Shown in pieces: positions 7,780 through 50,695 of a stretch of 64,000 bases of DNA (within the stretch, counting starts at the first letter, position 1; every line of letters begins with the position of its first letter). Source of the DNA: Reclinomonas americana ATCC 50394 (Eukaryota); NCBI GenBank assembly GCA_048213135.1, contig PS015020.1:448218-512217 (forward strand), in the 5' to 3' direction. The position numbers were made by a program, and so were the translations under genes. Below the pieces are notes generated by a model. That model was not told where the DNA came from. It worked only from the letters and a program-made list of their open reading frames with translations, and made no database searches.

Positions 7780-9270
7780 ATGACTCGCCTGCTTATCCTC
7801 ATCGCCCTCTGCGCTGTTGCCGTTGTGGCATTCTGCGCCGGAGCAAGCGCCAACATGATGGAGCCTGACTTTGAGCTGGGTGAGTGCTCGAGTGAGTCGC
7901 AGCGTGCACTTTTTCGCGCGCTCTCCTTTCATTTCCTTGCACTGTCTCCCTCTTTGTCCCCTTCTCTCTCCCTCTCTGTCTCACACACACTAGTACTCAC
8001 ACGCGTTCCGGTCTTGGTCACCTTGCACTCCTTTTTATTTTTGTATTTTCGCGCGCTCCACAGCATGATTCGCGCGAAATTTTTACTCCTCCCTCCCTCC
8101 CTCCTCCTTCCCCACTCCCTCTCCCTCTCTCTAACCATCCACCTGCCTGCAGCCTCCCTGGCATCCATGGGTACCGCTCAGCTCACGGGCGTGCTGGGCA
8201 CCACCTTTGAGCACACCATGGACGACTTGGTGGAGTTGCGCGCCGAGCTGGAGCTGGACGAGGAGGAGTACAGGTGAGAACAGCACCACTCCACATGTAC
8301 ACACCAGGCATCTCACCGCCTGTGCGCTCCTCTCGCAGCACGTACGCCGAATCTGAGCACTACGACGACGACGACGACGAGTACGATGAGGATGCCCTTC
8401 CTCTTGACTTCCGGTGCGTTCTCCCAACGCACTTTTCCCCTCACCCTCGAGCTCGTGCCGCCTTCTCCTCATGATCACTGCCCAGCTGGACGCAGCTGCC
8501 TGGCGCTGCCGTTGACATTGCGTTGCAGCAGAATTTCGACAAGCCGAAGCCAAAGACCTTTGTCGTCGGCACGGACTTCAACATGTTGAGTGTGATTGCT
8601 CTCTCTGCCCCTGCAGGGATACTTCGTGCTGACACTCCCTTTGATTTTGCTGTGCGGCAGCTACGAGTTCGACTACAAGTCCGGTTCGTGGATCCGCTAC
8701 GACGTCAAGGGTCGTGCACAGAACATTGCCGTGGCACCGTGTGGCACACCGTACGCCACGCTCGACGGCAGCAAGCACATCATCACCCTCAACAGGAAGA
8801 CCAGGAAGTGGAGCGAGGTGAAGGGCGTCGACTGGGCCGTCGACATTGCCGTCAGCTCCAAGCACATTTGGTACGCGCACATGAATGGCCGAGTGGTGCG
8901 CGTCAACCGCAAGACCGGAAAGAAGGAGGTCGATCCCTCTGCCGGCAACGTCGTTCGCATCACTGCCGACGCCAAAGGCAACGTGTATGTCGTGTGCAAC
9001 AACAACAGCATCTGGCGCATGGTCGCATTCGGCCAGTGGGCCCAGCTGCCGGGTGCCGCGCTGGACATTAGCATCGGCGTGACCGGCGCGCTGTGGGTGG
9101 TCGGCACGGACAAAGCCTTCTACACCTTTGCTCCCACTGTCGGCAACTGGATCTGCCTGCCGGTGGCACGCGGCATTCGCGTGTCGGTGGGCACGGAGGG
9201 TGGCCCGTGGCACATCAACGACAACAAGCACATCTTTCGCCCGCTCTACCCGCCGAACGGTCAGCAGTAG
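7780..9270 (+). CDS. Secreted tectonin-type beta-propeller lectin (copy 1)
   Basis: Exons 7780-7879, 8153-8273, 8339-8413, 8486-8584 and 8661-9270. Signal peptide MTRLLILIALCAVAVVAFCAGASA, an acidic linker, then repeats such as WTQLPGAAVDIA and WAQLPGAALDISIGVTGALWVVG. Confidence 0.85.
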
Positions 9271-10312: not shown

Positions 10313-11509
10313 ATGTCGTGAATTTTTCTGCACCTGTATGCAGCCTCGTTCGCGTCCATGGGCACGTACAACACGCGGCTCTCGGGTGTGCTGGGCACCA
10401 CCTTTGAGCACACGATGGACGACTTGGCAGAGATGCGCGCCGAGCTGCAGCTTGACGAGGAGGAGTACGGGTGAGAACATCACGTGTCACCTCCTCTCCC
10501 ACCTCCTCTCCCATCAGGCTCACAGCGTTTTCTCGCATCTTCGACAGTGTGTACGCGCAGCATAAGAAGGGCCATGGCGACGATGAAGACGATCCACTTC
10601 TTCCGCTTGATTTCCGGTGCGTTTCCATCGACGAAGACAACCTCACCTCCTATCGTGTCGTGTTCTCACCTCTGTTCCCCCTCTCCAACACCAATGCAGC
10701 TGGATCCAGCTGCCTGGCGCTGCCTTTGACATTGGCGTGCAGCACAAGGCCAACAGCAAGAAGCCCGCGCTCTTCGTCGTCGGTCTAGACCACAACATGT
10801 TGAGTGCGATCTCTCTCTCTCTCTCTCTCTCTCTCTGCTTGAAGAAGGAGCACGTCGTGCTGACGCTCTCTTTTTTCTCTCAATCTCCCGCAGCTACGAG
10901 TACAACTACAAGATCCAGTCATGGATCACCCACGACGTCCAGGGCAAGGCACTGAACATTGCCGTGGCTCCGTGTGGCACACCGTACGCCACTCTCGATG
11001 ACAGCAAGAACAAGCACATCATCACCTACGACGCCAAGACCAAGAAGTGGATCGAGGTCCCCGGTGTCGACTGGGCCGTCGACATTGCCGTCAGCAGCAA
11101 GTACATTTGGTTCGCGCACATGAATGGCGGCCGAGTGGTGCGCATCAACCGCAAGACCTTCAACGTTGAGTGGGATCCCAATGCTGGGCGAGTTTTCCGC
11201 ATCACCGTCGACGCCCACGACAACGTGTACGGCTTGACCACCGACAATGCCATCTGGCGCATGGTCGAGTTCGGCAACTGGGTGCAGATGCCGGGTGCCG
11301 CGCTGGACATTAGCATCGGCGTGACCGGCGCGCTGTGGGTGGTCGGCATGGACAAGGCCTTCTACACCTTTGCTCCCACCGTCGGCAACTGGATCTGCCT
11401 GCCGGTGGCACGGGGCGTTCGCGTGTCGACGGGTCCGGAGGGCGGCCCGTGGCACACGAACGACGCCACGCAGATCTGGCGCCCGATCTACCCGCCGAAC
11501 CAGTACTAG
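9947..11509 (+). CDS. Secreted tectonin-type beta-propeller lectin (copy 2, tandem paralogue)
   Basis: Exons 9947-10046, 10344-10470, 10548-10616, 10700-10798 and 10894-11509. Intron positions and phases are identical to copy 1, with the same repeat motifs. Confidence 0.85.
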
Positions 11510-12283: not shown

Positions 12284-15200
12284 ATGACAGACGCCCCGAG
12301 TGAGGTTTGGAATGTGAAAGAGAGAGAGTGTGTGGTGAGCACGCGTTGTCCCGCGCAACCGAGTCTCACACACACACGGACGCACCACACAGTGCACTGG
12401 GTGGCGTTGGCAAACCAACTGGTTACCGCGAGGTCGGTCACGGAAGAGCGCAGTCGTCAGCTGCGCCGCACCACGCTCACACCACGGAGCCGCAGTGCTC
12501 AACAGCCGATTGGTTTGTCAATGGAACTTAATTCTCACGCATACATGCGCGCGCACGCTCTCTCTGACACACACGCTCACTTGTGCAGTACATTTTCGGA
12601 GGCTTGGATGACGAGGAGACACTGGGTGACTTGCACGTGTTTGATCTCGGTATGTCGTGGGTCGATAACAGCTTTTTTTCCGATTGCCAATCAACAACTC
12701 ACATGATGTTGGTTTTTTTTTTGATTGCAGAGACACAACAGTGGGATGAGCAGCAGCATCCAGTGGGCATGTCGCCTCCTCCTCGCTCACAGCCCATCAT
12801 GTTCGCGTTTGGAGTGTCGGTGTTTGTTGGCGGTGGACTGGATGAGTACGGCGCACCACTGACTGACGGATGGCGGTTAGACACGGGTGAGGAAAAGATG
12901 CCTGCGTTCGGTGGTGGAGAGAGAGCCTGGGTTCTCACTGGATATGTCGTGCAGAAAAATGGGAGTGGCAGTGCTTGACTCGGACGAACTGGCCGGCGAT
13001 TTATGGGGTGAGTTGTCGAGGCTTTCGATCTCTCTCCTCTTGCAGTTCGCTTTCTGTTGTGAGCTAGATCTCTCTCTCTCTCTCTCCCACCCACCACACA
13101 CACACACACACACTCTCTCTCTCTCTCTCTCTTCTGTCGCAGTTGTCTCTCTCTCTCTTTTCTCCTTCTCCTCGCAGTTGTCTCTCCTGTCTTGAAGTCT
13201 CGTCAGCTCATCCTTTCTCCTTTCCCCGCTTCTGTCTCCCTTCGGTCCTCCCTCGCTGATCCTCGCCTGCACTCTGCACTTTCCTCATCACTCTTCATTT
13301 CACTCTTTGTTCCTTTTCCTCAGTGCCTCGTGTTGCTCCTCCCTTGGTTCCCTCGCTGTTTCTCGCCTGCGCTGTTCACTCTCCCTCATCACTCATGTTC
13401 TTCCCTTATCTGCATCACTCTGCTCCTCCCACCGTATGTTCAATTCCTCATTGTTCCTTCCCCGCAGTGCCTCCTGTTGCTTCTGTATTCCGTCATCATT
13501 TCAGTCACACTCTCGCTGCGCACTTCCTTATCTTCTTTCTGTGTTCCTTCTTCTGCTCCCCTCTCCTCCCTCCCCTTCTTCTTCTTCACTCTTCTTGCAC
13601 TCTGTGCTCCTTCTCCCCACTTCGCCCTTCATTCTCACCCCCTTCCCTGTTCTTCCCCCCTACACAGCCTGTCGCCCGCGTCGGCGTCTTCGCATACTGC
13701 TTCGGGGGACTGGAGAGCGCCATTGGCTCCAAACAGCGCGTACCGACCAACAGCCTGCACATGTTTGACCTGCGGACCCTGGAATGGCAGCAGGTGGGCG
13801 TCCTCGGCGAGCCGCCGGCTCCGCGAGCCGAGCACAGCTTTGTGGCCGTCGGACACATGCTGTACATGTTTGGAGGCATGACGTACACGGGCCGCCTGCT
13901 CAACGACTTTTATGCGTTTGACACTACGGCCCGCGTGTGGCAGTCGCACGGCTCGTTGGCGAATGTCGTACCACGCGCCGGTGCGGTGATTGTGCAGTGC
14001 GGCAGCCGGCATCTGGTCATGTACGGCGGTCGCACCGAGGCACTGAAGGCCACGGCGGATGTGTTCCTGGTCGATTTGCACGGCGACTCATTACGATTCG
14101 AGCCGCGCTATCCACGCGTTCAACAAGTCGACGGCATGCCGTGCCGCGCGCCGCTCTCGCTGCCGGCGCGCGCCTACCACAGCCTCAACACGGTCATGTT
14201 TTCGCGCAAGGCTGCCGCCGGCGGCGGCGGCAGCGAATCCATTGTGTCGTTGCTGGTCAGCATGGGCGGCGTGGACGAGCAGGGCGACACCAATGGCCAC
14301 GTGATGCAGGAGGAGACGACGGCCTTGTCCGCATGGCCGCGCACGTCACTTGACAATGGCTCAGTGACCACGACGACCACTACTACTACAACAACAACAG
14401 ATGCACCACCGCTGGCACAATCCCGCGGCTGCTTCTCCATGCCAAGTCTGCCACCGACCGCGCACACACAACAACCAGCGGCAAAATCCACGACAGGCAA
14501 CGACACGGATGCAAGTCGCGCACCCATGGCGCGACTGAAAACAGCCAATGGTGCACTCGGAACGCACTATATGGACATGACGGCGGCTGCCTCATCCGCG
14601 ACCAGCAATGCGGGGCGGAGCAGCAGCAGCCGCGTCAAGATGGACGCCTCGTCGTCGTCGTCGACCGCAGCAACAACAGCAACAGACGGCAGACCACACA
14701 GCGCAACTCAGATGACGAAGCAGCGACCGCGACGTGGAACGGTGGTGGCAGAGAGTGTCGAGCAGGCCCGCGAGCACTTGCGCAACATGGCACCGCCGGG
14801 CACGGTCGAGAAGCTGGCGGCGAAGAAGAAGGCAGCTGCGTCGGCATCGGCCACGGCACCCACCGCCGTGCACATCTCGGCCAGTGCGCCAGTGACGGCC
14901 TCGTCCACTGCTCGATGCAGTCCGCGGAGTGCCGCCACGTCAGTCGCCGCCGCCGCCTCTTCTGCCACTACCACCACTACCACTGCCGCCGCCGCCACCA
15001 CCACCACTGGATCGACTGCCGCGACGGCAGCCACATCGCCCGAGCGCAAGATGGACCCCAAACGCTGGGAGCTGATCCGCAACCGGAAGGAACACCTGCA
15101 CCGAGCGAAGCGTCTCCACGGCACCGCGCTGGCAGAGTCGTACTTGGAGGCACCTGGCGAGGCACAGTTTCGTTTCTTTTCCTGGGCGTCACCCCCACCC

Positions 15201-28300: not shown

Positions 28301-29904
28301 CTTGCTGGCGTGGCAGAGGTTTGCGGAGAGATCAATGATCGCGCGTCAGGTGAATCACTAATCGCTACGCACCGCAGATTGAACCACTATCCGCAGTCGC
28401 GGCAACTCACTCGCAAGGACTTGCTGGTAATGCGTTTGCTCTCACACATGCTTTGCATTTCTTAGCCGACTCTCATCTTTGCCGGGCGCAGCAAAAACAC
28501 CTCGATCGCTACGCCTGTATGCCGGGCAAGGTTGGCGACGCATTTTCCATCCTGCCGGACTCGTTCCGCCTGCCGAAACAGTACATCGAGTTCATGGACG
28601 TGTTTGATCACGTGCGTTCCTCGCTCTCGCCATCCTCTCCTCTCTGCGCACACTCACGCTCGTCATACACCAACAACAGTATGCAGCTGCCGGCTTCGAC
28701 TCCAACATCTGGATTCTGAAACCGGCCGACTTGTCGCGCGGCCGCGGAATCTCTCTGATTAACAATCGGACGGCCGTGGTGCCGGGCGAGAACCTTGTCG
28801 TGCAAAAGTACATTGAGAGGGTGAGTGTGTTGTGCAAAATTTCAGTAGAGCAGCCTCGTACCAACATGGCCGTCGTGCAGCCGCTGCTGGTGGAAGGGTA
28901 CAAGTTCGATCTGCGCCTGTACGTGCTGGTGACGTCGTTTTCTCCGCTGGAGGTGTTTCTGTACCAGGAGGGTTTTGCGCGCTTCGCCACGCAGCCGTAC
29001 ACCACCGACGCGAGTCAGGTGCGGTGGCTGCCCAACAGAGACCGGCAACTTGTCTCGATCACGTTGCTCATTCTTCTTCTGTGATAACCCCTCGTCCACA
29101 GTTGAGGAATGTGTTTGTGCACCTGACCAACAGCTCGATCCAGAAGAACAGCGACGGCGCTCTGCCTCGCATTCTCGGTGGCATGGGTGGTGGTGAGTGC
29201 AATACGCACTAGTATTGAGGCAGCACCACTCTCGCTCACCGCCCTGCTTTTTTCACCAGGCACCAAGTGCAGTTTGGCACAACTTCGACGCCTGCTGTCG
29301 GATCGCCAGGTTGATTTCGAGCCCGTGTGGTCCGACATTGCCATGGTCATCCTCAAGTGCCTGGCCTGCGTCGACGACATTATTCCGCACTGCCGGCAGG
29401 CCTTCGAGCTCTTTGGCTTTGACGTTATCATTGACGAGAACCTGCATCCGTGGTTGCTGGAGGTCAACTCGTCGCCGATGATGCACATGGTGCGTGGGTG
29501 CCGTACGTGCGCCACCGCGGCCTGCTGGTCTCTCATCATCGCCACACAGGATGCACCGCTCGACGAAGACATCAAGGGTCGTTTGCTCGCCGACACTCTG
29601 AGCCTGATCGACCCGCTGCCCTTCAACATGCAGGCACTGGAGGAGGTGCTGCAGCGTCGGGTGCGCGAGCGGCCTCGAGCTGCCGCCCGCCACGATCCGA
29701 GTTGCGTGCTCCACTGTCTGAAGTCGGCGCCTCTCTCTACTCGCTCTCACTGGCGGCGTTTCAGGTCTCAACGACGACCTCGTGCACATTCTCGGCGGTC
29801 GCACACCGCGACTGCACGGCGAAACCCCTCGCCACATGGGAAACTACAAGATGATAGCACCGAGTCCGTTGTACACTCGAGTGTGCAAGATGAAGCGCGG
29901 CTGA
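24790..29904 (+). CDS. Tubulin-tyrosine-ligase-like (TTLL) enzyme, probable polyglutamylase, with a very long disordered N-terminus
   Basis: Spliced motifs WNLMW, LNHYPQSRQLTRKDLL, WILKPADLSRGRGI, VQKYIERPLLVEGYKFDLRLYVLV, FARFA, HLTNSSIQK and FELFGFDVIIDENLHPWLLEVNSSP. Stop at 29902-29904. Confidence 0.9.
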
Positions 29905-29911
29905 GTGCCAC

Positions 29912-30067
29912 TCAGTCGGCCTCGCCATACACAATCTGGCTATCCGGGCTCACCTCCGCAATCACCTCCAAAATCTTGTGCAGCTCCACGACGGCTTCGT
30001 TGCTCATGTCGCTCTTCCCGAGGATTCGCAGGCGGAACGGTGCATCAACACGATATCCGAGTCCACC
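29912..30067 (-). CDS. Duplicated (candidate alternative) terminal exon encoding the barstar C-terminal half
   Basis: TTAAC..CAG acceptor in phase 0. Open frame GGLGYRVDAPFRLRILGKSDMSNEAVVELHKILEVIAEVSPDSQIVYGEAD* is colinear with 30683-30850. Confidence 0.55.
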   Translation of the reverse strand, partial: GGLGYRVDAPFRLRILGKSDMSNEAVVELHKILEVIAEVSPDSQIVYGEAD

Positions 30068-30225
30068 CTGGCACGATTGTTTGTTAACATTAAACTGCCG
30101 AGAGATGATGAGGCACTTCACAAACTTGCATTGATTGGTTTCCCTCACTCGTTCCTGTGCGATGCATGGCCTTGACACTCACAGTCGCAACGGAGTACAC
30201 AATCGCCACTGTCTTTATCCCCACA

Positions 30226-30680
30226 GCCGGCAGGCCTTCGAGCTGTTTGACTTCCATTTTGCTTCATGATCAAGTCGGCCCGGTCACTCGCTAGCGCTGC
30301 TTATCGTGCGGCCGGTTCGCGGATCCGGAGTTCTGCCCTTTATCTGTAGTCTGTCTCCTGCCTGTGGTCACAACACGATCGCGAGTGCAGGCCATTCTTA
30401 GGACGAGGTGCCGAATGTCAACTTGTCCATGCGCCACTGTGGCCTGTTGTCTCTCATCACCACACAGAATGCATCGCTCGACGATGACAGCATGATACCC
30501 ACTCGTACTCTGATGAGGCACTGGAGAAGGTGTAGCAGCATCGAGTGTGCAAGCGGCCTCAAGTTGCCGCCTGCCACGATCCAAGTGCAGATCATCGGTG
30601 GCCACACCACGCCACCTGGTAAACCAGAAGATGATAGCACCGAGTCCGCTGTACACTCGAGTCAAGCTCGGCCGAGTGCC
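30226..30680 (+). pseudogene. Degenerate tandem copy of the TTLL 3' end
   Basis: Matches 29392-29904 in blocks (gccggcaggccttcgagct; aagatgatagcaccgagtccg..tacactcgagt) but carries many deletions and frameshifts. Confidence 0.8.
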
Positions 30681-30682
30681 TC

Positions 30683-33600
30683 TCAGTCTCGAACACGCGC
30701 AGCCTCGCCAAACACAATCTCGCTTGCCGGGCTCTCCTCCTGAATCACCTCCATGATCTTGTGAAGTGCCGTGGTGGCTGCACCACTCATGTCCTTCTTC
30801 CCGATGACCCGCAGGCGGAACGGTGCTTCAACCTGATACCCGAGTCCTCCCTGGCGAGTCGCGATGGTTAACACAAGACTGTCAAGAGATGATCCGGAAA
30901 TATAGTACTCGCAACGCACTCTGAGGCCGTCGGCGACCGCGTCCAAGTTGCTGTGTGTGTGTGTGTGAGAGAGATTAAGGCACGTGTGTGTGTGTGTGTG
31001 AGATTAAGGCACGTGTGTGTGTGTGTGTCAAGATGGGCACGACGAACTGTCCATGCCAGTCGGGGGCTCCCACGGCCGCCAAGTACGCTCGATACACGTC
31101 ATCTGCCGATCGCCTGAGAGGATGATTGAGACGGAGTTGCTTCACCTCTCTATGTGTGTGGCTGGTTACGCAACGCGCCCCGGCACTGCATCACTGCTTC
31201 AGGCAAGTCAGCCATCGTCGCTCTCACACACAACTGGGAAATCGAAGGCGGACTTCAGAAACAAGGACGCGACTCTCGCACGACTTCAGACTCTGCTTTC
31301 CCTCGCGAGCTTCTGTGAGGAAGCACAGCCTTGACACTGCTCGTAATACACAATCACCGCTGCCTTTATTCCGACACAGAGAACGGCGGCACGCTCAACG
31401 CATGCTGGACGACGCGACTTCGGCTGCCATGTTATCGAGCAACGTGTTGGAGTCGACGGACTCGTCGCTGAGTTGGTGGATAAACGCGTTGACGACAAAA
31501 TCGACCAGAGAGGGGTCGGGGGGACGGCCGAGCACGCTCGTCGCACGCCGAGTGACCAGTTGCACGACGTACTGCCGATCGTCATCCTCCTCACCACCCT
31601 CTGGCGCCGCGACTCCTTGTGCTGTTGGTGCTGCAGTGGCACCCGGATGCGCAACGACCTCCCACGAGTCTTCACCGGCTGCTCGTGCGCGTAGTGATTC
31701 GCCCAGTCGTCTCATGGCGGAGCGCGTGTCGGGAGGGGTCGACTGCGCACTGTGCTTCGCAGGGACGTGGTGCGTCGTACCGCGATGCTCGGCCATGCCG
31801 CGGACAACGGAGCGCGCGACACGATCCCAGTGGCGTGATGCCGTCTGCGGCGGAGATAGAATGCAGCAAGCTTCAGCGATTCAGGCGACGACAACAGTAA
31901 ACAAATGTGTCATGACGCACCTCGGCTCGACTTGATACTGCTGGCGCACGGTGCTTCGCAAAGGCACCGGAGAACACGTGCTCACGAACCGCATTCCAGT
32001 GTTGTGATGACGGAGACTGTTAACACACGCAAGTCGCAGGTCAGCTGCAAAACTTTAAACAATCCACGTGGTGGCAAGAATGCGTAACATGGCCGGCATC
32101 GGTCCGCAGAGTGAGCACGTTGCGCAATGCCACGTCGCGGACGAGATCCCTGGCGACGCTACCAATCGGATCGAACTATGCACGCAGCAGTCAGCCACCA
32201 GGGGCAACGGAAGCTTGTGCTCTCAAGCATCCACCCACCTCTGCGTCGTCGACCTCCACCGTCGGCGAAAAGTGCACCCGATGAGGTCGCGAGCTGCCGG
32301 GCGACATGGACGACAGCGAGTTGCGCCGAGGAGAGCCGCGTGGAGGCTATATAGAGGGACAACGCGTCAATCACATTACCTCACAGAAATCAGAAGCGTG
32401 GCGAAAACGAGACGAAACACTTGGTGGTTGATGTCGCAGCGCCAGCACTGCACGCATCTCCTCCTTTGCTTGCTCCACAGCTCGCATGGCGTCGTCCAGC
32501 TGTGACTTGCAGGTTAGCTCATCGAGAGGTGACAATAAGCAGAGGGAAGAAAATGACGCACTCTGTCTTCCGCGGGATGATCGTCCAGGTCGTCTTGCAC
32601 ATCGTCGTACTCATCGGTGGCCACGTCCGAATCCTCCGAGTACTGATCGTGACTGTCGTTGTCTCCGCTGCGTGATGAAGTCGCACTGCCGAGAGCATCT
32701 TCGTGCAGGCGTGCCAACTCATTCAGCAAGCTCCGGCTGCGCAGAGGAGAGATCAGCAAACGACAGACGGCGCGCCGGACGAGATGCAGCAGACGCACTG
32801 CTGATGAATCAACGACGGCGACGTGAGCAGCGACTCGTCGTCGTTCTCGGTTCGCACGATGCGCTTCAGCTCGGCCAGCAGATTTCTCTTGGTGGCCATT
32901 GAGGACGGCGATAGTGGTGTGTCTCGATTGCCCACCTGCAACGGAAACAGTGAACACACACGCAATGTGCAATGTGCAACACACGGATTGCCAACCTTTC
33001 TCGTCAACTCGCCAAGCACGCCGCGCTGCGCAGCAATGTCATCCACGGCCGGCACTGGCAGGACATGTGACTTGATGGCGCCCGCAATCGCCCTCCGCGC
33101 GGCAAAATTGGGTGGCGGCGGTGGCGGTGGTGGTGGAGCCGCAGGCGCGGGTGGAGCTGCAGGTCGTGGTGACTGTCGGAGGCAAACGCAATTGTGAGTG
33201 GAAGCAGATGACGCGAGACGACTGCCCGAGCCACTCACCGTGGAAGACGAGGAAGACGAAGAGGACGAGGAGACAGCCAAAGTTGCAGCCGCGGGGTCAG
33301 TGGTCGGCTGGCTGCGACGCTTGCGACTTTTTCGTCGAGCCTGCTGGCGAGCAAGCTTGGCCGCCTCGGTAAGCTCCGACAGCAGCATGTTCTTGGCACG
33401 GAGGGCCGACGGCAGCGCCGCGACATCTGCGTCGACCACCGACCTGGTCTTGGAGCGGAGCTCAGAGAGCAGCGTCGGCTGCGCCTTCACACGAGAGGGT
33501 GAAAGGGCGACATCGGACGCGCCTCCCAGCTACAACATTCACGCACGTCAGCAACTCGCAAAAGGGACAACGCACAATGCAGGAAACCAAAAAGAAGCGC

Positions 33601-36600
33601 ACCCGCTGAATGTCTCCCAACAGTTGCTTGTTCACCGGCGACGAGATCGACGACGCAGCACCGCGCGAGGATCGCGATGGCGGTGGCGGTGGTGGTGGAG
33701 GCGGTGGTGGTGGAGGAGCAGGCGGTGCGGCAGGAGCTGCATGATCCATGTCGGACCACAACACCTCCGGCGAGCTTGGTCGATCAGGAGACGGCTACGT
33801 AACAAATCGCATCATTAGGGGACGCTCACAGACCACACAAAAGCATTGTCTCCACTGACCTCAAAGAACTCAGCTCCGTCCTCCTCATGAACCTCCAACA
33901 CCGGTGACGGCTGCTCGTCGTCGCGCGAGTTGCGAGACTCGGTCGTCAGCACCGGCGCACGAACAACTGCCAGTGGCACGGGCGCGGCGGCGCTGGTCGC
34001 TGCGGAGGCTCCCGAGCGCGGCTTTGCAGGCGGCTGTGGTGACAGATCGAATTTCACACTCTGCGCAGTCGTTGAGCGCGACGATTGGCGCACAACATGC
34101 GAGTCGGATCCCACCTTTTGCTTCAACTCGTCAAGCACAGACCGCTTGCGCGCCACGGATGATGGACTGGCCAATGCTGCGTGCATTGACAAAAAGAAAA
34201 ATGGTGAGTGAATGGTGACGGATAGGGTCATCAACACAAACACTGACCATCATCTGACTTTGGCACTCGCGCGTGCACCTCTGACAAGAGTTTGGAATGG
34301 TTGATCATGGCAGACGGTGCTTGACTGCAGAACGGGTTCAGCGTCGGAGAGGAGGAGGAAGAAAAGCAGAATGGACCAAAGCGCAACATAATGTCGTCGT
34401 CGCGTGCCGCCATGGTTCGACGCTGCAGTTCATGCATCAGGCTGCCCTGTGCACGAATGGCCGACGGCATAGAGGCCCCTCCACCCTGCGACAACGACTT
34501 TGTTAAGTCTACGAAAGAAGGGCGAGCACACAGTCAAGAGCATCCGAACCGTGTTGCGCAGCTGGGTCAAAAGTGCGGCGTGCGAGCGCACCTGCGATGG
34601 CGAACTGCTGCCGGCCTCATTGGTGGGAACCTTTTGCCGGAGCTCCGAAATGAGGCTAGATCGACCTTCAACGGCCGATGGAGTTGCGCCGCCGGCCGCC
34701 CGCACTCCGACAAGCAGATTGCGATGCGACTGCACGGCTGATGGCGGCACCGAGTCGGCCATGGTGCGCAGCACACCAGGCACACCCTGTCGCGCAGCAC
34801 CGGGCGGAGGTGGCGGAGGGGCTTGCGGTGGAGGTGGAGGTGGTGGTGGAGGTGCGGAGGGTGCGCTGGGTGCAGTCGAACTGAGCGAGCACTCGTCAGT
34901 GGGAGGAAAGAGAGCAAGCAAGTCGGTCGTAATAAGTCACGCCATACCCGTTGGCTGGAAGATCGCCGCGCTTCGTGGACACCACATCTTCCAATTCCTG
35001 CAATTGCCTCGCCAGCTCGTCATTCTGTCTCGCGATTTCGTCAGCTCTGGATTGCACACACATGTCAGTGGGGCGGGGAGAGAATAGGGGGGAGAGAAAG
35101 GAGAGACTTGCTACCGTCGTCGTTGCGTGCGATACTCGGCGCGGAGCTGAGAGCGCTCCGATTCGAGTGCTTCAAAGGCTGCAGCGCTGGCTGCAAACTG
35201 TGACAGAGAAAGCGTATGAGCGAAACTTGCACACCGACGTGCACAATAGCTGAACGGAACGCACCCCATGAATCACGCCAGCATTGCTGTGAGAGCAACA
35301 AGTTCAAGTTGTGAGACACGCAGGTGCTTTTGAGTGTGTGTGAGCGTTACACCACCGACCTCTCACGCTCCTGCTCCAACTGCTCCTCCAGATCGTGAAC
35401 ACGACGCAGCAAATCGTTACACCTGCAACGGCGGATTGAGAACAGACGAGGGCGACGAATGTTGCGAGGGGCTAGCAAACCTGTTCTCGACTGAGCGCTT
35501 CTCACTCTCCAGTCGGGCAATCTGTTGCTTGAGCGACGAAGCCTGCGCCTGATCCAGCGATACCTGGAATGCATTCAGGTGTCAAACATGCACGACAAGT
35601 GCTGCGCTGCACCTGCGTGGAATCACACACCTCCTCGTGTCGCTTCCTGTGCAGCAGAACGACGGTGCATGAGATACGCGTACAGAAATAAGCACACAAC
35701 AAAGAACCAAACATGACGCAACAGTTGCAGGAGCTGCGACAACTCGTCCTGCAGGTGGCTGATTCTGAGTTCCATGGTTACGAATCTGCGGGAGACGCAG
35801 ACAGGTGTGAGACGCGGAAGCGACAAACAGCCGTTTCTTGGAAACACACGGACCTCTGCTCGTAGTCCGACTGCTCTCGTCGCAGTTGCTCCACATCACG
35901 TTGCAAGCGAGAAGCTGCCATTGGATCACTGGTAATCTGTGTGCGACGGAATGTAAAGCAACGATCTGGGTGAAACCTGCTCGAGCACCACACACAAACC
36001 TGTCCCACTGAACCCTGGAGCACCTGGAGACGGGATGCGCGATTCGAGATAATATCGCTCAGCTGTGACAGGAGACGTGTGAGCAGAAAAAGTCAGACGC
36101 GAGTTGATCATTTTTCGACGTCACCAGTCGCTGTTGAGAACGAGTGGAAGCCAGCTCCTGCAGCAGTGACGCGCGCACACTGTCGCCCTCCAGCATCAGC
36201 ATCTGCGCCGCGAGCGACGGAGTGGTGGCGGTGGTGCTGGTGTGCGTGTTGCTGGTTCCCGACGCCGCCAACGACGACGACGACGCGGTCAACGAGTTGA
36301 GCACGCTGGTCGGTGTCGGCAGCGCCGACAGCGGTGACACGTACACGCTGTCGGATCCACCGTCGCTGCCAGCGTCGCCCGTGCCGAGTGTCATTGTTGC
36401 TGCCTGTGGTGACTGAATCGGCATCACCAGCGAGTGCGTGGCACGACCCGCTGCCACCTAACGCGCAGGGTGAGCCACCGAGTGTGGTGAGGCGAAGATC
36501 GACGCGTGACAAACCTGGCGAGACGACACTGGCGATCGATCGGCCGTGCCTGAGGCCGGTGGCGACAAGGGAACAACAGAGGGAGCAGGCGCCTGTTTAT

Positions 36601-37578
36601 CGGATTCCATGTCAGCACCACGCGCGATCACGATTCAATCATATTACGCAACTGGCAACGCCGGTGGTGCCGGTATGCCGAGCTCCTCCTCCAACAACAG
36701 CTTGGCGGCCTTGCTTGGCGCACCTGTACGGCGCAAAACACGAAAACGGAGCGGAGTGAGCACAATGTCTAATGATCGGGCCCCAAAAAACGACCACTAG
36801 TCACCGTTGATGTAGCCCGACCGCGCAATCTCCAGACGCTGCTCGCGAGGGACCGCCGAGCGCGGTGGCGGAATCTCCACCGGTCCCAGCACCTGGCCTC
36901 GCGGAACACCAGCCGGCGACGGATCCTAATCCAACCGCGCGTGAGTGAGCGGAAAAACACAGACCTGTAGACAGAGTGAAGACAGACCCTGGTGGGCTCC
37001 CTCGTCGACTGCACAAACTCCTTGAGCGACACTGGCGGTGCCGGCGACGACGGCGCCGCCACCGCACTCGGCGACAGCGGCGCCGCGTTGCCAGAGATCA
37101 GCGGCTTGCGAATGTACTGCGCCAGCAATCGATTCGACGACGATGACGGCGACGACGATGACGACGAAGCCGGCGACGAGGCAAACGACAGCGGACTAGG
37201 CGGCGGCGATCCCGACTTTATCCGCTGCTTAGCCGCCACATCCGCCATGCGTTGCGCGACCGGTGATGTGGCGGTCGCAGGGCCCTTTCCAATGCCCAAT
37301 CCCGGATACTGTATGACACGAATGAATGAGCGTTCCCCCGCATGTGATCGATATCTCTGCCACGACTGTTGCACCATGCTTCGATAGTCGACTTCCTCGG
37401 AGGAGAAGGCGAGCTCGGCGAGCGACTGGCGCTGGTGCGCGACATCCACAGACTCGCGAATGATTGTGCTCTTGGGCGACGCAGGCGGAGGCGATGAGGC
37501 TGACGGCTTCTTGCCTGCACGTGCCGCAGCCAAGGCCGCTGCCATGCGCTGCCGCCGTTGCTGCGGCGACTGCGACAT
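30683..37578 (-). CDS. Giant multi-exon protein: coiled coil, three polyproline tracts, PSA..LLxELxxxV helical repeats, RVHF motif, C-terminal barstar domain
   Basis: More than 30 exons can be chained in one frame with GT-AG introns from MSQSPQQRRQ (37578) to the stop at 30683. The last four exons (31193-31175, 31113-31048, 30950-30920, 30850-30683) give RSADDVYRAYLAAVGAPDWHGHNLDAVADGLRGGLGYQVEAPFRLRVIG. Confidence 0.75.
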
Positions 37579-38150
37579 CTGAGAGAAGGAGAGAGTGTGT
37601 GAGTGCGAGAGTGAGTGAGGCCATTTCGTGCACGTTTTTTGTGTTCTGCGCTTTTTTGTTGCCTTCTGCTGTGTGCGTGGTGTGTATCGCGTGTGCATGC
37701 GTGTGCGTGTGCGTGTGTGTGCGTGCCTTTGCTCGCTCACCGTTCGATAAGTGATCGTCGGAAATTTTATGCCTGTCTCAAAACACAACAGCGAAAAGGT
37801 ACGCGCGCAGACACACACGCACGTTCACAGACACAGCGGGCGTGTGTGTGCCTCTCCTCTCTCTTGCTCTCTCTCGCGCGCTCTCCCACTCACACTCTGT
37901 GCTCGACATGACATTCCATTGTTATATTGGTTGCGTGTGCTGAGCAGAGCATCTGAGAATCACCGCCCGATTCCTCTCTCTTTCTCCACTCCCTCTCTCT
38001 CGCTCACTCACACACATCTACCTGCGCGCACACACACTCTCCATCACATGCTCATGCACATGCAGTTGAAAAAGCTCAACTTGACCTTCAACCGATTCTT
38101 TTGCTGATCACGACACAACGCAGGCGACTAGTGTGTGTGCGAGAGAGAGA

Positions 38151-41100
38151 ATGAGTGAGCAGACAGCAGGGTCATCATCGGCATTGAAGAAGCCGGCGGA
38201 TATGGACGAGGCTGTGCACGAGTGGGACGAGTACTTTCATGTCCAGGAGGTACGTGTACGCGGGATAATACGTAGTTGTCACGCCAATCGCGCCACAACA
38301 CGACGACTGGCGGACCGACTCTCTCTCTCTCTCCGCGGTGTGTGTATTTTCCTTTGCGTTCGCAGTTGCGGTCTCCGTCGTCGCTGGCGAGCAAGAATCC
38401 CGCCGAGCTGGCCAACATGATGCGCGAGGGAATTGTGTCGCATGCTGATGACTCGTCGCCGCTGTCGCCATCGGCTGCGCATCGTCACAGTGAGGCACTG
38501 GCGGAGCTCATGAGTGGAGTGGGATCGTCGGAGAAGGAGGTGGGAGGCCGCGCGTGGTGTGTGTGTCTGTGAATCGCGTGCTGAGTAGAGTGACTGTTGG
38601 CAGGATCATGCGCACTTGGTGGGCGAGCTGAATCGTGTGGCGGCGCCGGTGTTGAGTGCGGACACGGGGCTCATGCGGCCGTCGGATATGCGGCATCGTG
38701 CGGCGGTGCTGCGCAGCATTCGCACGATGCAGGATACGTTGCCGCCGTCCACCGTGGCCAACAAGCGGCAGATGACGGCCGAGCTGCAGCGCACAGTTGC
38801 GTGCTTGTTGCAGTGGATCTGGGATGGATTCTAGTCTTGTTCACTCATATTCTCGATGTCTGATCAGGTTCCCCAAGCAGATGATTCGGTTCGCATTGCG
38901 CTTTTCCTCTCGGTCCGGATGATTGTCTCACCGTGTGTCGGCGCGCAGTTGACCACGTATCCATCGGGAATGCACGACAAAGCGACGTTGGCGGCGGCTG
39001 TTCGTGCCAATGTCCGTCCGACCCCGTGCCAAGATGATGTGTCGGCTGAACACAGCGCTCGTTCACATGTGCTGAGTGAGTTGTCGCGGGTGAGTCCACT
39101 GTCCGCAAGAGTTGTATCTGCGGTAGCAGCAGCTCATGCTCTTCTCGTGCGATCGCAGACTGCGGAAGCCAGTGGCGAGGGATTCAGTTGTGTCACCCTT
39201 CTGTCATCTTCAGCTCAGCAGATGACCGTGCCTGACTTTGCCGATTGCACAGCTCCACAAGCTCTGCAGTCGCGCGCCGCTCTGGCGAGCGAGCTGCATC
39301 GCAAGATCCCGGAAGCCGACAATGCTGGCACCGTGCCACCGTCTGCACTGGCACATCATGGAGACATGTTGCGCGATCTGACGGCGCACGTGGCGGCGGC
39401 ACCCAGTGATGATGAACTGCGACGCCGTGCCAATGCACCAATGTTTACCGAGCTGCTGGGTGTTGCGTCTCTTTTCATTGATTGATTGTCGAGTGTTTGT
39501 GTCAATGTGACTGAAAAAATGCATGCAGAGTGGTCAACTGCGAGCTGGTGGCGAGGACGATGTACATGCGATTCCACCGTCGTCGGTGCGCTCACATCAC
39601 TTGCTGGCGGATGAGATTCGGCATCGCGTTCCGGAGGTGGAGACGGCCGAGGCGTCGGCTGCTCCATCTGCACTGAAGGCCAAGGCGGCGCTGGCGGCGG
39701 ACATTCGCAGCCACGTGACACCCAAGGCGAGTGTGGACGAGGTTGCGTCGGAGAAGCGTGCTCGGTCGAATGTGTTGGGCGAGCTGTCCAGGGTTCGTCA
39801 CTTGAAGCGTGTGGTGATGTTTCTGTTGCTGCATCGTCACTGAGTTGCATGCTTGTGTGCAGATCTCGGAGGGCGCTGGTGACGGCTTTTGTTGCGTCGC
39901 TCTCTTCCTCACCATGAGCTCTACAGATGTTGTGCCTGACCTTGTTTTATTGCACAGCTCCACAAGCTATGCAGTCGCGCGCCGCTCTGGCCAGCGAGTT
40001 GCATCGCAAGATCCCGGAGGCCGACGATGCTGGCACAGTGCCACCGTCTGCATTGGCACACCGTGGAGACATGTTGCGCGATCTGACGGCGCACGTGGCG
40101 GCGGCACCCAGTGATGATGAGCTGCGACGCCGTGCCAATGCGCCAATGTTTACCGAGCTGCTGGGAGTTGCGTCTCTTTTCATTGATTGATTGTCGAGTG
40201 TTTGTGTCAATGTGACTGAAAAAATGCATGCAGAGTGGTCAACTGCGAGCTGGTGGCGAGGACGATGTACATGCGATTCCACCGTCGTCGGTGCGCTCAC
40301 ATCACTTGCTGGCGGATGAGATTCGGCATCGTGTTCCGGAGGTGGAGACGGCCGAGGCCTCGGCTGCTCCATCTGCACTGAAGGCCAAGGCGGCACTGGC
40401 AGCGGACATTCGCAGTCATGTGACACCGAAGGCGAGTGTGGACGAGGTTGCGTCAGAGAAGCGTGCACGGTCGAATGTGTTGGGCGAGCTGTCCAGGGTG
40501 CGTCTTCGGTTAAGTGATGTTTCTGTTGCCGCATCACCACTAAGTTGCATGCTTGTGTGTAGATCTCGGAAGGTGCTGGTGACGGTTTTTGTTGCGTCTC
40601 TCTGTTGTTCACCGTGAGCTCAGCAGATGTTGTTGCCTGACCTTGTTTTATTGCACAGCTCCACAAGCTCTGCATTCGCGTGCAGCTCTGGCCAGCGAGT
40701 TGCACCGCAAGATCCCAGAGGCCGACGATGCCGGCACAGTGCCACCGTCTGCATTGGCGCATCGTGGAGACATGTTGCGCGATCTGACGGCGCATGTGGC
40801 TGCGGCACCCAGTGATGATGAACTGCGACGCCGTGCCAATGCACCAATGTTTACCGAGCTGCTGGGTGTTGCGTCTCTTTTGATTGATTGATTGATTGAT
40901 TGTCGAGTGTGTGTGTCAATGTGACTGAAAATATGCATGCAGAGCGGTCAACTGCGAGCTGGTGGCGAGGACGATGTACATGCGATTCCGCCGTCGTCGG
41001 TGCGCTCACATCACCTGCTGGCGGATGAGATTCGGCATCGTGTTCCGGAGGTGGAGACGGCCGAGGCGTCGGCTGCTCCGTCTGCGCTGAAGGCCAAGGC

Positions 41101-44100
41101 AGCACTTGCGGCGGACATTCGCAGTCATGTGACACCGAAGGCGAGTGTGGACGAGGTTGCGTCGGAGAAGCGTGCACGGTCGAATGTGTTGGGCGAGCTG
41201 TCCAGGGTGCGTCTTGGGTGAAGTGCGTGGTGATGTTTCTGTTGCTGCATCGTCACTGAGTTGCATGCTTGTGTGTAGATCTCGGAGGGTGCTGGTGATG
41301 GCTTTTGTTGCGTCGCTCTCTTCCTCACCATAAGCTCCGCAGATGCCCATGCCTAACTATGCTGACTGTACAGCTCCACAAGCTCTGCAGTCGCGCGCCG
41401 CTCTGGCCAGCGAGTTGCATCGCAAGATCCCGGAGGCCGACGATGCCGGCACAGTGCCACCGTCTGCATTGGCGCATCGTGGAGACATGTTGCGCGATCT
41501 GACGGCGCATGTGGCGGCGGCTCCCAGTGATGATGAACTGCGACGCCGTGCCAATGCGCCAATGTTTACCGAGCTGCTGGGTGTTGCGTCTCTTTTGATT
41601 GATTGATTGATTGATTGTCGAGTGTTTGTGTCAATGTGACTGAAAATATGCATGCAGAGCGGTCAACTGCGAGCTGGTGGCGAGGACGATGTGCATGCGA
41701 TTCCACCGTCGTCGGTACGCTCACATCACCTGCTGGCGGATGAGATTCGGCATCGTGTTCCGGAGGTGGAGACGGCCGAGGCGTCGGCTGCTCCGTCTGC
41801 GCTGAAGGCCAAGGCGGCACTGGCAGCGGACATTCGCAGTCATGTGACACCGAAGGCGAGTGTGGACGAGGTTGCGTCGGAGAAGCGTGCACGGTCGAAT
41901 GTGTTGGGCGAGCTGTCCAGGGTGCGTCTTGGGTGAAGTGCGTGGTGATGTTTCTGTTGCTGCATCGTCACTGAGTTGCATGCTTGTGTGTAGATCTCGG
42001 AGGGTGCTGGTGACGGCTTTTGTTGCGTCTCTCTCTTGTTCACCGTGAGCTCAGCAGATGTTGTTGCCTGACCTTGTTTTATTGCACAGCTCCACAAGCT
42101 CTGCAGTCGCGCGCCGCTCTGGCCAGCGAGCTGCATCGCAAGATCCCGGAGGCCGACGATGCTGGCACAGTGCCACCGTCTGCATTGGCACACCGTGGAG
42201 ACATGTTGCGCGATCTGACGGCGCACGTGGCGGCGGCACCCAGTGATGATGAGCTGCGACGCCGTGCCAATGCGCCAATGTTTACCGAGCTGCTGGGAGT
42301 TGCGTTTCTTTTCATTGAATGATGAGGGTGTGTGTGTGTGGCATCCCTCGTTAATGTGACTGAAAAATGCATGCAGAGTGGTCAACTGCGAGCTGGTGGC
42401 GAGGATGATGTGCATGCGATTCCACCGTCGTCGGTGCGCTCACATCACCTGCTGGCGGATGAGATTCGGCATCGCGTTCCGGAGGTGGAGACGGCCGAGG
42501 CGTCAGCTGCTCCGTCTGCACTGAAGGCCAAGGCGGCACTGGCGGCGGACATTCGCAGTCATGTGACACCGAAGGCGAGTGTGGACGAGGTTGCGTCGGA
42601 GAAGCGTGCACGGTCGAATGTGTTGGGCGAGCTGTCCAGGGTTCGTCACTTGAAGCGTGTGGTGATGTTTCTGTTGCTGCATCGTCACTGAGTTGCATGC
42701 TTGTGTGCAGATTTCGGAGGGTGCTGGTGATGGCTTTTGTTGCGTCTCTCTCTTGTTCACCGTGAGCTCAGCAGATTTGTTGTTGTCTGACCTTGTTTTA
42801 TTGCACAGCTCCACAAGCTCTGCATTCGCGCGCCGCTCTGGCGAGTGAGTTGCACCGCAAGATTCCGGAGGCCGACGATGCTGGCACAGTGCCACCGTCC
42901 GCATTGGCACACCGTGGAGACATGTTGCGCGATCTGACGGCGCATGTGGCGGCGGCACCCAGTGATGATGAACTGCGGCGCCGTGCCAATGCTCCCGTAT
43001 TGAACGAAATCATGAGCGTTGCGTCGTTTTGTCGAGCAGGTCTGGTCGACCGACTTGTGTACTGATGGTGCTCGTGCTCAATAATAGGTCGGCGAGACCG
43101 GCGGCGAACGGGGAATCAATCCTTCGTCGGTGCGCTCGCATCACATGCTTGCTGATGAGATTCGTCATCGTGTGCCGGCTTCGCACGAGACCGGTGTGGT
43201 TGCTGCGCCATCCGCTGTTGTTGGCAAAGCATCCATTGGCGAAAGCATCAAGGCGACAGTGACCCCAACCGCCAGTGTGGATGAGGTTCGATATCTTGCC
43301 TTTTTGGCGACCATGCAATCGTCGTCATCGTTTACCGATTTGGTTCCCTGTTTGTGCAGATATCGGCCGAGCGGCGTGCACGAGGCAATGTGCTGGGCGA
43401 GCTGTCGCGGGTGCGCCACTGTCGGCACTCTCTGCTGTGCGTGTGTTATGAGTCGCCAACCTATGGGTGTGTGCACAGGCCTCCGAAGGAGCGGGTGAGG
43501 GTTTCGCTCCGGAGGCACTCCGCCAGCACCACAAACTCGGCTCCGAGGTCGAACGCGTGGCTGGTGCTGCGCCTTCGGCTCTGCGCAGTCACCATGTGGC
43601 GCTGGATGAGCTGAAGCAGCGTGTGCCAGTGGCGCCCGACGCCCAAGAGACTCGCCGACGTGCGAACAGTGATCTCTTTGTGGAGCTCTCGAGTGTTGCG
43701 TTGCATGTGTGTCTGTGCAGCGAACACACCCCGTCTCACTTGGTGTTGATTGATGCAGACGGCGTCCAACTTTGAGCCGGGTACTACGGTGCGCGCATGC
43801 ATGCGCTGACATGGAAGCAGAAGAGAATATCGCATCCCTCACTCGAATGGTTTTCTGTTTTTCTTCTGTTCCCATCTGTGCAGTTGGTGCCATCCATGAT
43901 CACGGCGCACGCCCACCTGGCACACGAGCTCACTCGTCGCGTTGCGTTTTTTTGCGACCCTTGTCGTTTTACCGCATCTGGCGGGTGTGTGTGTGCAATA
44001 CCAGCCAACAAGCACTGTGTCACATGCGACAGGTACCTGTGGCCAGCGCTGACGGCGGACACCTTCCATCGCCCTCTGCTCTTGTACACAAGAATCAGCT

Positions 44101-50300: not shown

Positions 50301-50695
50301 ATGAGGAAAATTGCACCGTGAAAAGTTGCAAGCAACATGATACACACACACACACANNNNNNNNNNNNNNNNNNNNNNNNNNNNNNNNNNNNNNNNNNNN
50401 NNNNNNNNNNNNNNNNNNNNNNNNNNNNNNNNNNNNNNNNNNNNNNNNNNNNNNNNNNNNNNNNNNNNNNNNNNNNNNNNNNNNNNNNNNNNNNNNNNNN
50501 NNNNNNNNNNNNNNNNNNNNNNNNNNNNNNNNNNNNNNNNNNNNNNNNNNNNNNNNNNNNNNNNNNNNNNNNNNNNNNNNNNNNNNNNNNNNNNNNNNNN
50601 NNNNNNNNNNNNNNNNNNNNNNNNNNNNNNNNNNNNNNNNNNNNNNNNNNNNNNNNNNNNNNNNNNNNNNNNNNNNNNNNNNNNNNNNNNNNNNN

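What the first reader, a model, noticed from the sequence alone, without database searches (positions are those of the whole stretch)
30683..31193. Bacterial-type barstar (RNase-inhibitor) domain, split by three introns, fused to the end of a giant eukaryotic protein
Seen: four small minus-strand exons (19, 66, 31 and 168 nt), which the six-frame ORF track does not join, splice to MQCRGARSADDVYRAYLAAVGAPDWHGHNLDAVADGLRGGLGYQVEAPFRLRVIGKKDMSGAATTALHKIMEVIQEESPASEIVFG. Established: barstar reads [44 protein letters not shown], and the P-x-aromatic-x-G-x-N-L-D-A-x-x-D motif is the RNase-binding loop/helix. The family is essentially prokaryotic and normally a small stand-alone immunity protein next to its RNase. 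Here it is in frame with more than 30 upstream exons and no cognate RNase is visible in the window. Inference: an old horizontal acquisition, intronised and tethered to a cytoskeleton-like scaffold, either as immunity against barnase-like toxins of prey or symbionts or repurposed as an interaction module. The donor just upstream is ambiguous (31273 or 31234), but both keep the frame.
Basis: partly seen in the sequence, partly recalled or inferred. Interest (0 to 1): 0.85.

Follow-up and report, generated by a model that had tools for sequence, protein, structure and literature searches.

The report
Intron-split barstar-like gene in a protist
A eukaryotic nuclear gene, cut by three short introns, encodes a small protein of the bacterial barstar (RNase-inhibitor) family; such genes are already listed for a few protists and algae, and its claimed fusion to a giant protein is not shown.

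Summary
The four minus-strand exons exist as described, with GT..AG borders and a consistent frame. No unspliced piece is recognisable: Pfam found no barstar in 4 of 4 pieces. The spliced product scores 39.0 bits (E 3.5e-14 for one sequence) against a profile I built from 49 prokaryotic domains picked by Pfam PF01337. The best of 1000 shuffles scores 7.8 bits, and the alignment crosses all three junctions without a gap. The barstar assignment and the introns are therefore well supported.

The fusion to a giant upstream protein is not supported. The frame holds its own ATG (31215) eight codons before the profile match begins, with an in-frame stop 39 nt upstream. The nearest upstream coding exon ends in TGA, followed by AATAAA. 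An in-frame fusion through a 206-nt intron remains possible. No RNA run was listed and no relative was found, so I could not settle the 5' end.

A decayed copy of the last exon lies 780 bp downstream. No barnase-like RNase is visible in the window. Barstar homologues in dictyostelids, Naegleria and chlorophytes were tabulated in 2012 (PMC3482391), so this is a new member of a known kind.

The parts
31175..31215 (-). Exon 1 in the stand-alone model: ATG at 31215-31213, then 13 codons plus 2 nt.
   Evidence: The frame is open from the ATG. The donor GTTGCG follows 31175. The profile alignment starts at residue 8 of this reading.
31114..31174 (-). Intron 1, 61 nt, GTTGCG...CAG
   Evidence: Removing it joins the two exons without a gap in the profile alignment.
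31048..31113 (-). Exon 2, 66 nt: helix 1 and the P-D-W-H-G loop
30951..31047 (-). Intron 2, 97 nt, GTTCGT...CAG, holding two 29-nt (CA)n-rich repeats
   Evidence: (family D7)
30920..30950 (-). Exon 3, 31 nt: the N-L-D-A-V-A-D-G-L-R helix with the DxxxD acidic pair
   Evidence: The DxxxD motif is named as the family signature in PMC3482391, Table 3.
30851..30919 (-). Intron 3, 69 nt, GTGCGT...CAG; in frame and free of stops
30683..30850 (-). Exon 4, 168 nt: the C-terminal half of the domain and the TGA stop (30685-30683)
29912..30067 (-). Relic copy of exon 4 (51 codons plus TGA) in the other unit of the tandem duplication; exons 1-3 are missing there
   Evidence: family D1, 80% identity; 119 of 153 nt identical, dN/dS 0.62; 69% protein identity
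30218..30590 (+). Degenerate duplicate of the 3' part of the TTL-family gene, lying downstream of the barstar-like gene's stop
   Evidence: families D2, D4, D5. None of the 7 TTL-family proteins gave a tblastn match here at E <= 1e-3.
31395..31610 (-). Nearest upstream coding exon ('exon X'; the 5' limit is approximate), ending in TGA at 31397-31395. It could be a fusion partner through a GTTGAG donor at 31399.
   Evidence: Its last 70 codons show a coding-type GC pattern by codon position, 0.70/0.41/0.74. Stop codon. No Pfam family and no Atlas hit.
31365..31370 (-). AATAAA, 24 nt downstream of the exon X stop
   Evidence: Whether this organism uses it as a polyadenylation signal is unknown.

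Best explanation
This is a nuclear, intron-bearing gene for a barstar-family protein. It most likely encodes a stand-alone cytosolic protein of 101 residues (ATG 31215, stop 30685-30683, four exons). It descends from a bacterial barstar-type immunity gene acquired long ago and since intronised.

By homology, it would bind a barnase/RNase Sa/T1-type RNase (Pfam PF00545) and block its active site. The binding surface would be the helix that carries the conserved acidic pair, D39 and D43 of the model, in N-L-D-A-V-A-D.

The target could be an RNase the organism makes itself, or RNase toxins from bacteria it eats or harbours.

Shown: the exon structure, the family assignment and the conserved motif. 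Inferred: the start codon, expression, the fold and RNase inhibition.
For: Family:
- The spliced product scores 39.0 bits, E 3.5e-14 (search space of one sequence), over profile positions 12-90 of 102 and residues 8-87. The profile was built from all 49 prokaryotic domains that Pfam PF01337 picked above its cut-off. The best of 1000 shuffles scores 7.8 bits.
- The score is still 27.3 bits after removing the 8 most similar sequences, and 20.3-35.8 bits with single-phylum profiles.
- The best pairwise match is L132, 26% identity over 72 residues with the P-D-W-H-G-x-N-L-D-A stretch shared.
- The DxxxD signature is present.

Introns:
- The two unspliced pieces are the top 2 of 1861 six-frame pieces in the window, but score only 9.8 and 5.1 bits.
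- Intron length and donor type match six introns of the neighbouring TTL-family gene.

Stand-alone reading:
- The ATG lies 7 codons before the profile match starts. Bacterial stand-alone members such as L110 and L121 likewise start a few residues before the domain.
- There is an in-frame TGA 39 nt upstream of the ATG. The upstream exon ends in TGA followed by AATAAA.
- Genes here are tightly packed: the TTL-family gene's stop and the relic exon's stop lie 7 nt apart.

Function:
- 30 of 49 bacterial barstar loci have a barnase-like neighbour, and 8 of the 8 I tested are PF00545. These include L145, whose domain has the same G-G-x-G turn after the helix.
Against: - Pfam's own model could not be run on the spliced peptide, so the profile I used is a proxy.
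- No homologue was found for exons 3-4 among 1.84 billion cluster representatives or in the near-length search, so I cannot test for selection or conservation.
- No transcript evidence is available.
- Only 179 nt separate the upstream stop from the ATG, which is tight for a terminator plus a promoter.
- An in-frame splice from exon X exists.
- No PF00545-like RNase appears in the window, and the rest of the genome could not be searched.
- The relic copy is no better conserved than its flanks, so the duplication says nothing about constraint.
Confidence: 0.55

Rival explanations
1. The barstar-like domain is the C-terminal module of a longer protein. Exon X (ending at 31400) would be spliced to the reader's acceptor at 31194/31193. 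The domain would then be tethered either to a small partner or to the large proline-rich upstream gene.
For: - The join from 31400 to 31193 is in frame and open.
- Only 179 nt lie between the exon X stop and the ATG.
- Exon X looks coding.
- Bacterial genomes also carry the domain at the C-terminus of longer open frames: L122 at 252 aa, and long frames in L107 and L108.
Against: - The intron would be 206 nt, against 59-97 nt for the nine verified introns.
- The GTTGAG donor scores at the 47th percentile (nine-intron matrix) or the 29th (TTL-only matrix) of all GT sites.
- The acceptor at 31194 scores at the 31st percentile or the 62nd of all AG sites. The matrices are weak, though: leave-one-out acceptor scores for the nine real introns run from -1.1 to 8.7.
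- Any in-frame chain has about a 1 in 3 chance of arising by accident.
- About 500 nt upstream of the exon X frame (32373-31881) holds no long open frame, and the first 90 codons of that frame lack the coding pattern. Continuity with the large proline-rich gene is therefore not shown.
- 0 of 9 upstream minus-strand frames match a Pfam family above its cut-off.
Confidence: 0.27
2. The gene is an unexpressed or decaying relic of an old transfer: intact by chance, but no longer functional.
For: - No homologue or transcript was found.
- The region has been through duplication and deletion, and the sister copy has already lost exons 1-3.
Against: - The 101-codon frame is intact.
- All three introns have canonical borders.
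- The family's signature residues are kept, and the profile alignment over 80 residues has a single one-residue gap.
Confidence: 0.13
3. The resemblance to barstar is a chance product of choosing splice sites to fit a remembered motif.
Against: - 39.0 bits against at most 7.8 bits for 1000 shuffles.
- The match extends through exon 4, well beyond the motif.
- It holds with profiles that lack the closest sequences.
- The borders are of the same type as those in the neighbouring gene.
Confidence: 0.03

Closest known systems
Barstar of Bacillus amyloliquefaciens and the Pfam family PF01337 (Imm-Barstar; PDB 1BRS as cited in PMC3482391, Table 3)
   Same: - Domain length of about 90 residues and co-linear profile alignment.
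- The P-x-aromatic-aromatic-G-x-N-L-D-A-x-x-D helix with the DxxxD acidic pair.
- By my recollection, not by any search, these two aspartates correspond to Asp35 and Asp39 of barstar, the main barnase-binding residues.
   Different: - It is encoded in a eukaryotic nucleus in four exons.
- No adjacent RNase gene.
- The tryptophan and cysteine that flank the second aspartate in the profile consensus are replaced by alanine and glycine.
- At most 29% identity to any of the 49 bacterial domains over the aligned columns.
Bacterial barstar-family members with a G-G-x-G turn after the binding helix (L145, L107, L147, L108, L122, L120, L151)
   Same: - They share the N-L-D-A-x-x-D-x-L-R-G-G-x-G stretch and the following P-F-x-L strand.
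- L145 overlaps the stop of a PF00545 RNase gene, so this subtype also pairs with barnase-type RNases.
   Different: - In the quick tree the window's sequence does not group with them. It sits on a long branch beside L132 and L115 with weak support.
- Several of them are longer proteins or lack an RNase neighbour.
Orphan barstar-family proteins such as E. coli YhcO (L002) and L132
   Same: - Small proteins with no barnase gene next door. 19 of 49 bacterial loci lack one within 1.5 kb.
- L132 is the best pairwise match and lies beside a DMP19-like protein.
   Different: They are bacterial and intronless. The YhcO group lacks the P-x-aromatic-G-x-N part of the motif.
Eukaryotic Imm-Barstar homologues listed for dictyostelids, Naegleria and chlorophytes (Zhang et al. 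2012, PMC3482391, Table 3; passages seen)
   Same: A bacterial immunity-protein family present in a microbial eukaryote, presumably through lateral transfer.
   Different: - I could not place this organism. Its TTL-family protein is at most 55% identical to anything in the 5.8-billion-protein collection, so I cannot say whether it belongs to one of those three groups.
- The paper's additional files, which may name the eukaryotic proteins, were not available to me.

Membership tests
Barstar family (Pfam PF01337 / Imm-Barstar) | Significant full-length match to the family profile | tested here: met
   39.0 bits, E 3.5e-14, against a local profile of 49 PF01337-selected domains; the best of 1000 shuffles is 7.8 bits. 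The score is 20.3-35.8 bits with sub-sampled profiles. This is a proxy: Pfam's own model was applied only to the unspliced pieces, where 0 of 4 matched.
Barstar family (Pfam PF01337 / Imm-Barstar) | DxxxD acidic pair on the RNase-binding helix, plus conserved hydrophobic residues (PMC3482391, Table 3) | tested here: met
   N-L-D-A-V-A-D aligns with the profile's N-l-D-A-L-w-D. The motif definition was seen.
Barstar family (Pfam PF01337 / Imm-Barstar) | Alpha/beta fold: three-stranded parallel sheet packed against helices | not testable with these tools
Barstar family (Pfam PF01337 / Imm-Barstar) | Genomic pairing with a barnase-type RNase (PF00545); typical of the family but not universal | tested here: not met
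   A local barnase profile of 23 sequences found nothing among the 1861 six-frame pieces of the window (best 6.9 bits, E 0.78). An intron-split gene could be missed, and the rest of the genome is not held. 19 of 49 bacterial loci also lack such a neighbour.
Barstar family (Pfam PF01337 / Imm-Barstar) | Tight inhibition of a barnase/Sa/T1-type RNase | not testable with these tools
   This needs a biochemical assay.
   One in-frame join exists, 31400 to 31193, but it needs a 206-nt intron with weak sites. No RNA run was listed and no related locus was found.

The most novel reading that the evidence does not exclude
The barstar-like domain really is the C-terminal module of the large proline-rich upstream protein, whose repeated 'LL-x-EL-basic-x-basic-V' motifs after polyproline runs recall actin-binding WH2 elements. 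That would make it a bacterial RNase-inhibitor fold intronised and repurposed as a tethered interaction or RNase-docking module on a cytoskeletal scaffold. I know of no described eukaryotic domain architecture of this kind.
Probability: 0.12. Interest if true: 0.7.

Novelty: new member of a known kind. Interest (0 to 1): 0.36.

Why it matters
Bacterial immunity proteins that have settled in eukaryotic genomes show how phagotrophic or symbiont-bearing protists arm themselves against bacterial toxins, or control their own secreted RNases. Eukaryotic barstar homologues are on record only as a line in a 2012 table and, as far as three literature searches show, have not been studied.

This copy carries three introns and sits between ordinary eukaryotic genes, so it cannot be contamination. 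It is also very divergent: no relative turned up among 1.84 billion cluster representatives. It would be a clean case for testing whether such proteins still inhibit RNases. It is not a new kind of system.

Tried and rejected
- Pfam on four unspliced pieces: no barstar. The only hit was a sub-threshold phage tail terminator.
- phmmer of the pieces against PDB sequences: 0 hits. One search failed on a frame slip, which I corrected.
- Exon 3 + intron + exon 4 against 1.84 billion cluster representatives: one hit, a 2189-aa protein of 11 near-identical repeats. It matched through a short G-G-L-G stretch and mostly the intron-encoded residues, so I judged it spurious.
- Near-length search of the 5.8-billion-protein collection: 1 candidate, none scored.
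- RNA runs: no RNA holder was listed, so read laying could not be used.
- Metagenome contigs: 309 pattern matches, none confirmed by tblastn.
- ESM Atlas on exon X and on exons 3-4: no usable hit.
- Whole-genome search: no genome is held for this window.
- E. coli YhcO relatives (581 proteins): too narrow a set, so I did not use them for the profile.
- Splice-site weight matrices from 9 or 6 introns: too weak to separate the 5' models.
- Exon X against the bacterial barstar loci and against both local profiles: nothing.
- Tree of 50 rows: this is the quick method, because the careful search did not finish. The window's sequence sits on a long branch (2.47) and no donor phylum can be named.
- Rfam over the whole window: 0 matches.
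- TRF on 37500-44000: 0 rows, because the repeat period exceeds 500.
- Earlier findings of this scan: nothing relevant.
- Organism placement from the TTL-family protein: the best identities of 45-55% are spread over oomycetes, green algae, a cryptophyte and others, so the organism stays unplaced.

Full report
**1. The observation**

Read on the minus strand, the window holds the four exons at the stated coordinates: 31193-31175, 31113-31048, 30950-30920 and 30850-30683. The three introns are 61, 97 and 69 nt. Their donors are GTTGCG, GTTCGT and GTGCGT, and all three acceptors are CAG.

The window is eukaryotic. No genome is held for it. The neighbouring plus-strand gene belongs to the tubulin-tyrosine-ligase (TTL) family, scoring 104 bits against Pfam PF03133. 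It has six short introns of the same type.

**2. Is it a barstar?**

No unspliced piece is recognisable:
- Pfam found no barstar in 4 of 4 pieces.
- PDB sequence searches gave 0 hits.
- A phmmer search with exon 3 + intron + exon 4 against 1.84 billion cluster representatives returned one protein. It is a 2189-residue repeat protein matched through a short glycine-rich stretch, which I judged spurious.

Pfam PF01337 was run over E. coli K-12 and over samples of four bacterial phyla. It matched at E <= 1e-6 in 11 of 151, 14 of 151, 9 of 121 and 5 of 121 genomes. All 49 matched domains were extracted, none dropped, and aligned into a profile of 102 positions.

The spliced product, assembled by coordinates inside the script, gave these results:
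- It scores 39.0 bits, E 3.5e-14 for a search space of one. The best of 1000 shuffles scores 7.8 bits.
- The alignment runs from profile position 12 to 90 and from residue 8 to 87. It has one single-residue gap and none at the three exon junctions.
- In a six-frame scan of the window, the two pieces holding these exons are the top 2 of 1861, but at only 9.8 and 5.1 bits. This explains the Pfam blank, and it is itself evidence that the introns are real.
- The match is robust: 27.3 bits without the eight most similar sequences, and 28.3, 20.3 and 35.8 bits with Bacillota-only, Pseudomonadota-only and Actinomycetota-only profiles.
- The best pairwise match is L132, at 26% identity over 72 residues.
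- The family signature DxxxD (PMC3482391, Table 3; passage seen) is present as N-L-D-A-V-A-D.

I take the barstar-family assignment as about 90% secure. The fold itself could not be tested.

**3. Is it fused to a giant protein?**

This part of the finding does not hold up as stated. Against fusion:
It stays open upstream to an ATG at 31215-31213, preceded by an in-frame TGA at 31257-31255. Read from that ATG the product is 101 residues, and the profile match begins at residue 8. Stand-alone bacterial members such as L110 and L121 start in the same way.
- The nearest upstream sequence that looks coding is an exon ending at 31400-31395 ('exon X'). Its last 70 codons have GC by codon position of 0.70/0.41/0.74, like the TTL-family exons. 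It ends in TGA, with AATAAA 24 nt further on.
- Exon X has no Pfam family, no Atlas hit, and no likeness to the bacterial barstar loci.

For fusion:
- Only 179 nt separate that stop from the ATG.

That intron would be 206 nt, whereas the nine verified introns measure 59-97 nt. Weight matrices built from those introns rank the donor at the 47th or 29th percentile and the acceptor at the 31st or 62nd. The matrices are too weak to decide, because leave-one-out acceptor scores of the real introns range from -1.1 to 8.7.

Further upstream, about 500 nt (32373-31881) has no long open frame. Continuity with the large proline-rich gene at 32.4-37.6 kb is therefore unproven. 0 of 9 upstream minus-strand frames reach a Pfam cut-off.

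No RNA run was listed. No related locus was found in metagenome contigs: 309 pattern matches, 0 confirmed.

My odds are: stand-alone 0.55, fused to exon X or beyond 0.27, non-functional relic 0.13, chance 0.03.

**4. Surroundings**

The locus lies in a tandem duplication, with units of about 29384-30217 and 30218-31376.
- The lower unit keeps an intact 3' end of the TTL-family gene. Its stop is at 29902-29904, where Saprolegnia and Albugo homologues align to within a few residues of their own ends. Of the barstar-like gene it keeps only a copy of the last exon (30067-29912).
- The upper unit keeps the whole barstar-like gene. Of the TTL-family gene it keeps only a degenerate fragment, with no tblastn match from 7 TTL-family proteins.
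- The two last-exon copies are 78% identical in DNA, no better than their flanks (77-88%), with dN/dS 0.62. This fits one constrained copy and one drifting copy, but proves neither.
- In the lower unit the two convergent stop codons lie 7 nt apart, so genes here can be very tightly packed.

**5. Mechanism**

In the bacterial sample, 30 of 49 barstar loci have a barnase-like ORF within 1.5 kb. All 8 that I tested are Pfam PF00545. One of them is the neighbour of L145, whose domain shares the G-G-x-G turn seen here.

By homology, the protein should bind a barnase/Sa/T1-type RNase through the acidic helix and block its active site. This is inference only.

A local barnase profile of 23 sequences finds nothing in the window (best 6.9 bits, E 0.78). 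An intron-split gene would probably be missed, and the rest of the genome could not be searched. 19 of 49 bacterial loci also lack an adjacent RNase, including the best match L132, which sits beside a DMP19-like protein.

**6. Comparison and novelty**

Zhang et al. 2012 (PMC3482391; passages of Table 3 and the text seen; additional files not available) list Imm-Barstar in dictyostelids, Naegleria and chlorophytes. The presence of the family in microbial eukaryotes is therefore on record.

Three full-text searches turned up no study of a eukaryotic member. I read only their listings and abstracts, apart from the paper above.

I could not place the organism. Its TTL-family protein is at most 55% identical to anything in the 5.8-billion-protein collection, and the best hits are scattered over oomycetes, green algae and a cryptophyte.

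A quick tree puts the sequence on a long branch, weakly beside L132 and L115. No donor can be named.

**Verdict**

This is a real, intron-bearing barstar-family gene, and a new member of a known kind. The fusion that made the finding exciting is unproven and, on balance, less likely than a small stand-alone protein.

Noticed in passing
window 29384-31376: The tandem duplication has decayed reciprocally. The lower unit keeps the TTL-family gene's 3' end but only the last barstar-like exon. The upper unit keeps the whole barstar-like gene but only a degenerate TTL fragment. In the lower unit the convergent stop codons (29902-29904 on the plus strand, 29914-29912 on the minus strand) are 7 nt apart.
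   Followed up: partly
window 39246-43101: A tandem array of about six units of 700-719 bp at 76-97% identity, with long open frames on the minus strand. I did not determine what it is.
   Followed up: partly
window 32756-34936, minus strand: Open frames with polyproline runs, each followed by a repeated 'LL-x-EL-basic-x-basic-V' motif that recalls WH2 actin-binding motifs. The WH2 resemblance is from my recollection; no Pfam family was matched.
   Followed up: partly
window 8596-9267 and 10730-11506, plus strand: Two neighbouring paralogous frames with a Tectonin domain (33.1 and 30.8 bits, both over the cut-off of 30).
   Followed up: no
window 4649-5404 (minus strand) and 12568-12975 (plus strand): A scramblase-family exon (33.7 bits) and a Kelch-repeat exon.
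   Followed up: no
P0122: The best hit of the TTL-family exon is a protein labelled as from the lung fluke Paragonimus kellicotti. It scores 148 bits, against at most 103 bits for every other hit, and matches in two places. The label may reflect foreign DNA in that assembly.
   Followed up: no
L107, L108, L122 (bacterial loci): The barstar domain lies at the C-terminal end of much longer open frames: 252 aa in L122, and more than 400 aa in two Streptomyces-type loci. In high-GC DNA the long frames may be spurious.
   Followed up: no
L132:796-1356: The closest bacterial relative of the window's domain lies beside a DMP19-like protein (25.1 bits, cut-off 25) and not beside an RNase. This hints at a locus of orphan immunity genes.
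   Followed up: no
window 5951-6756 and 50357-50695: Runs of N (assembly gaps) flanked by (CA)n and (GA)n microsatellites, which are abundant across the window.
   Followed up: no
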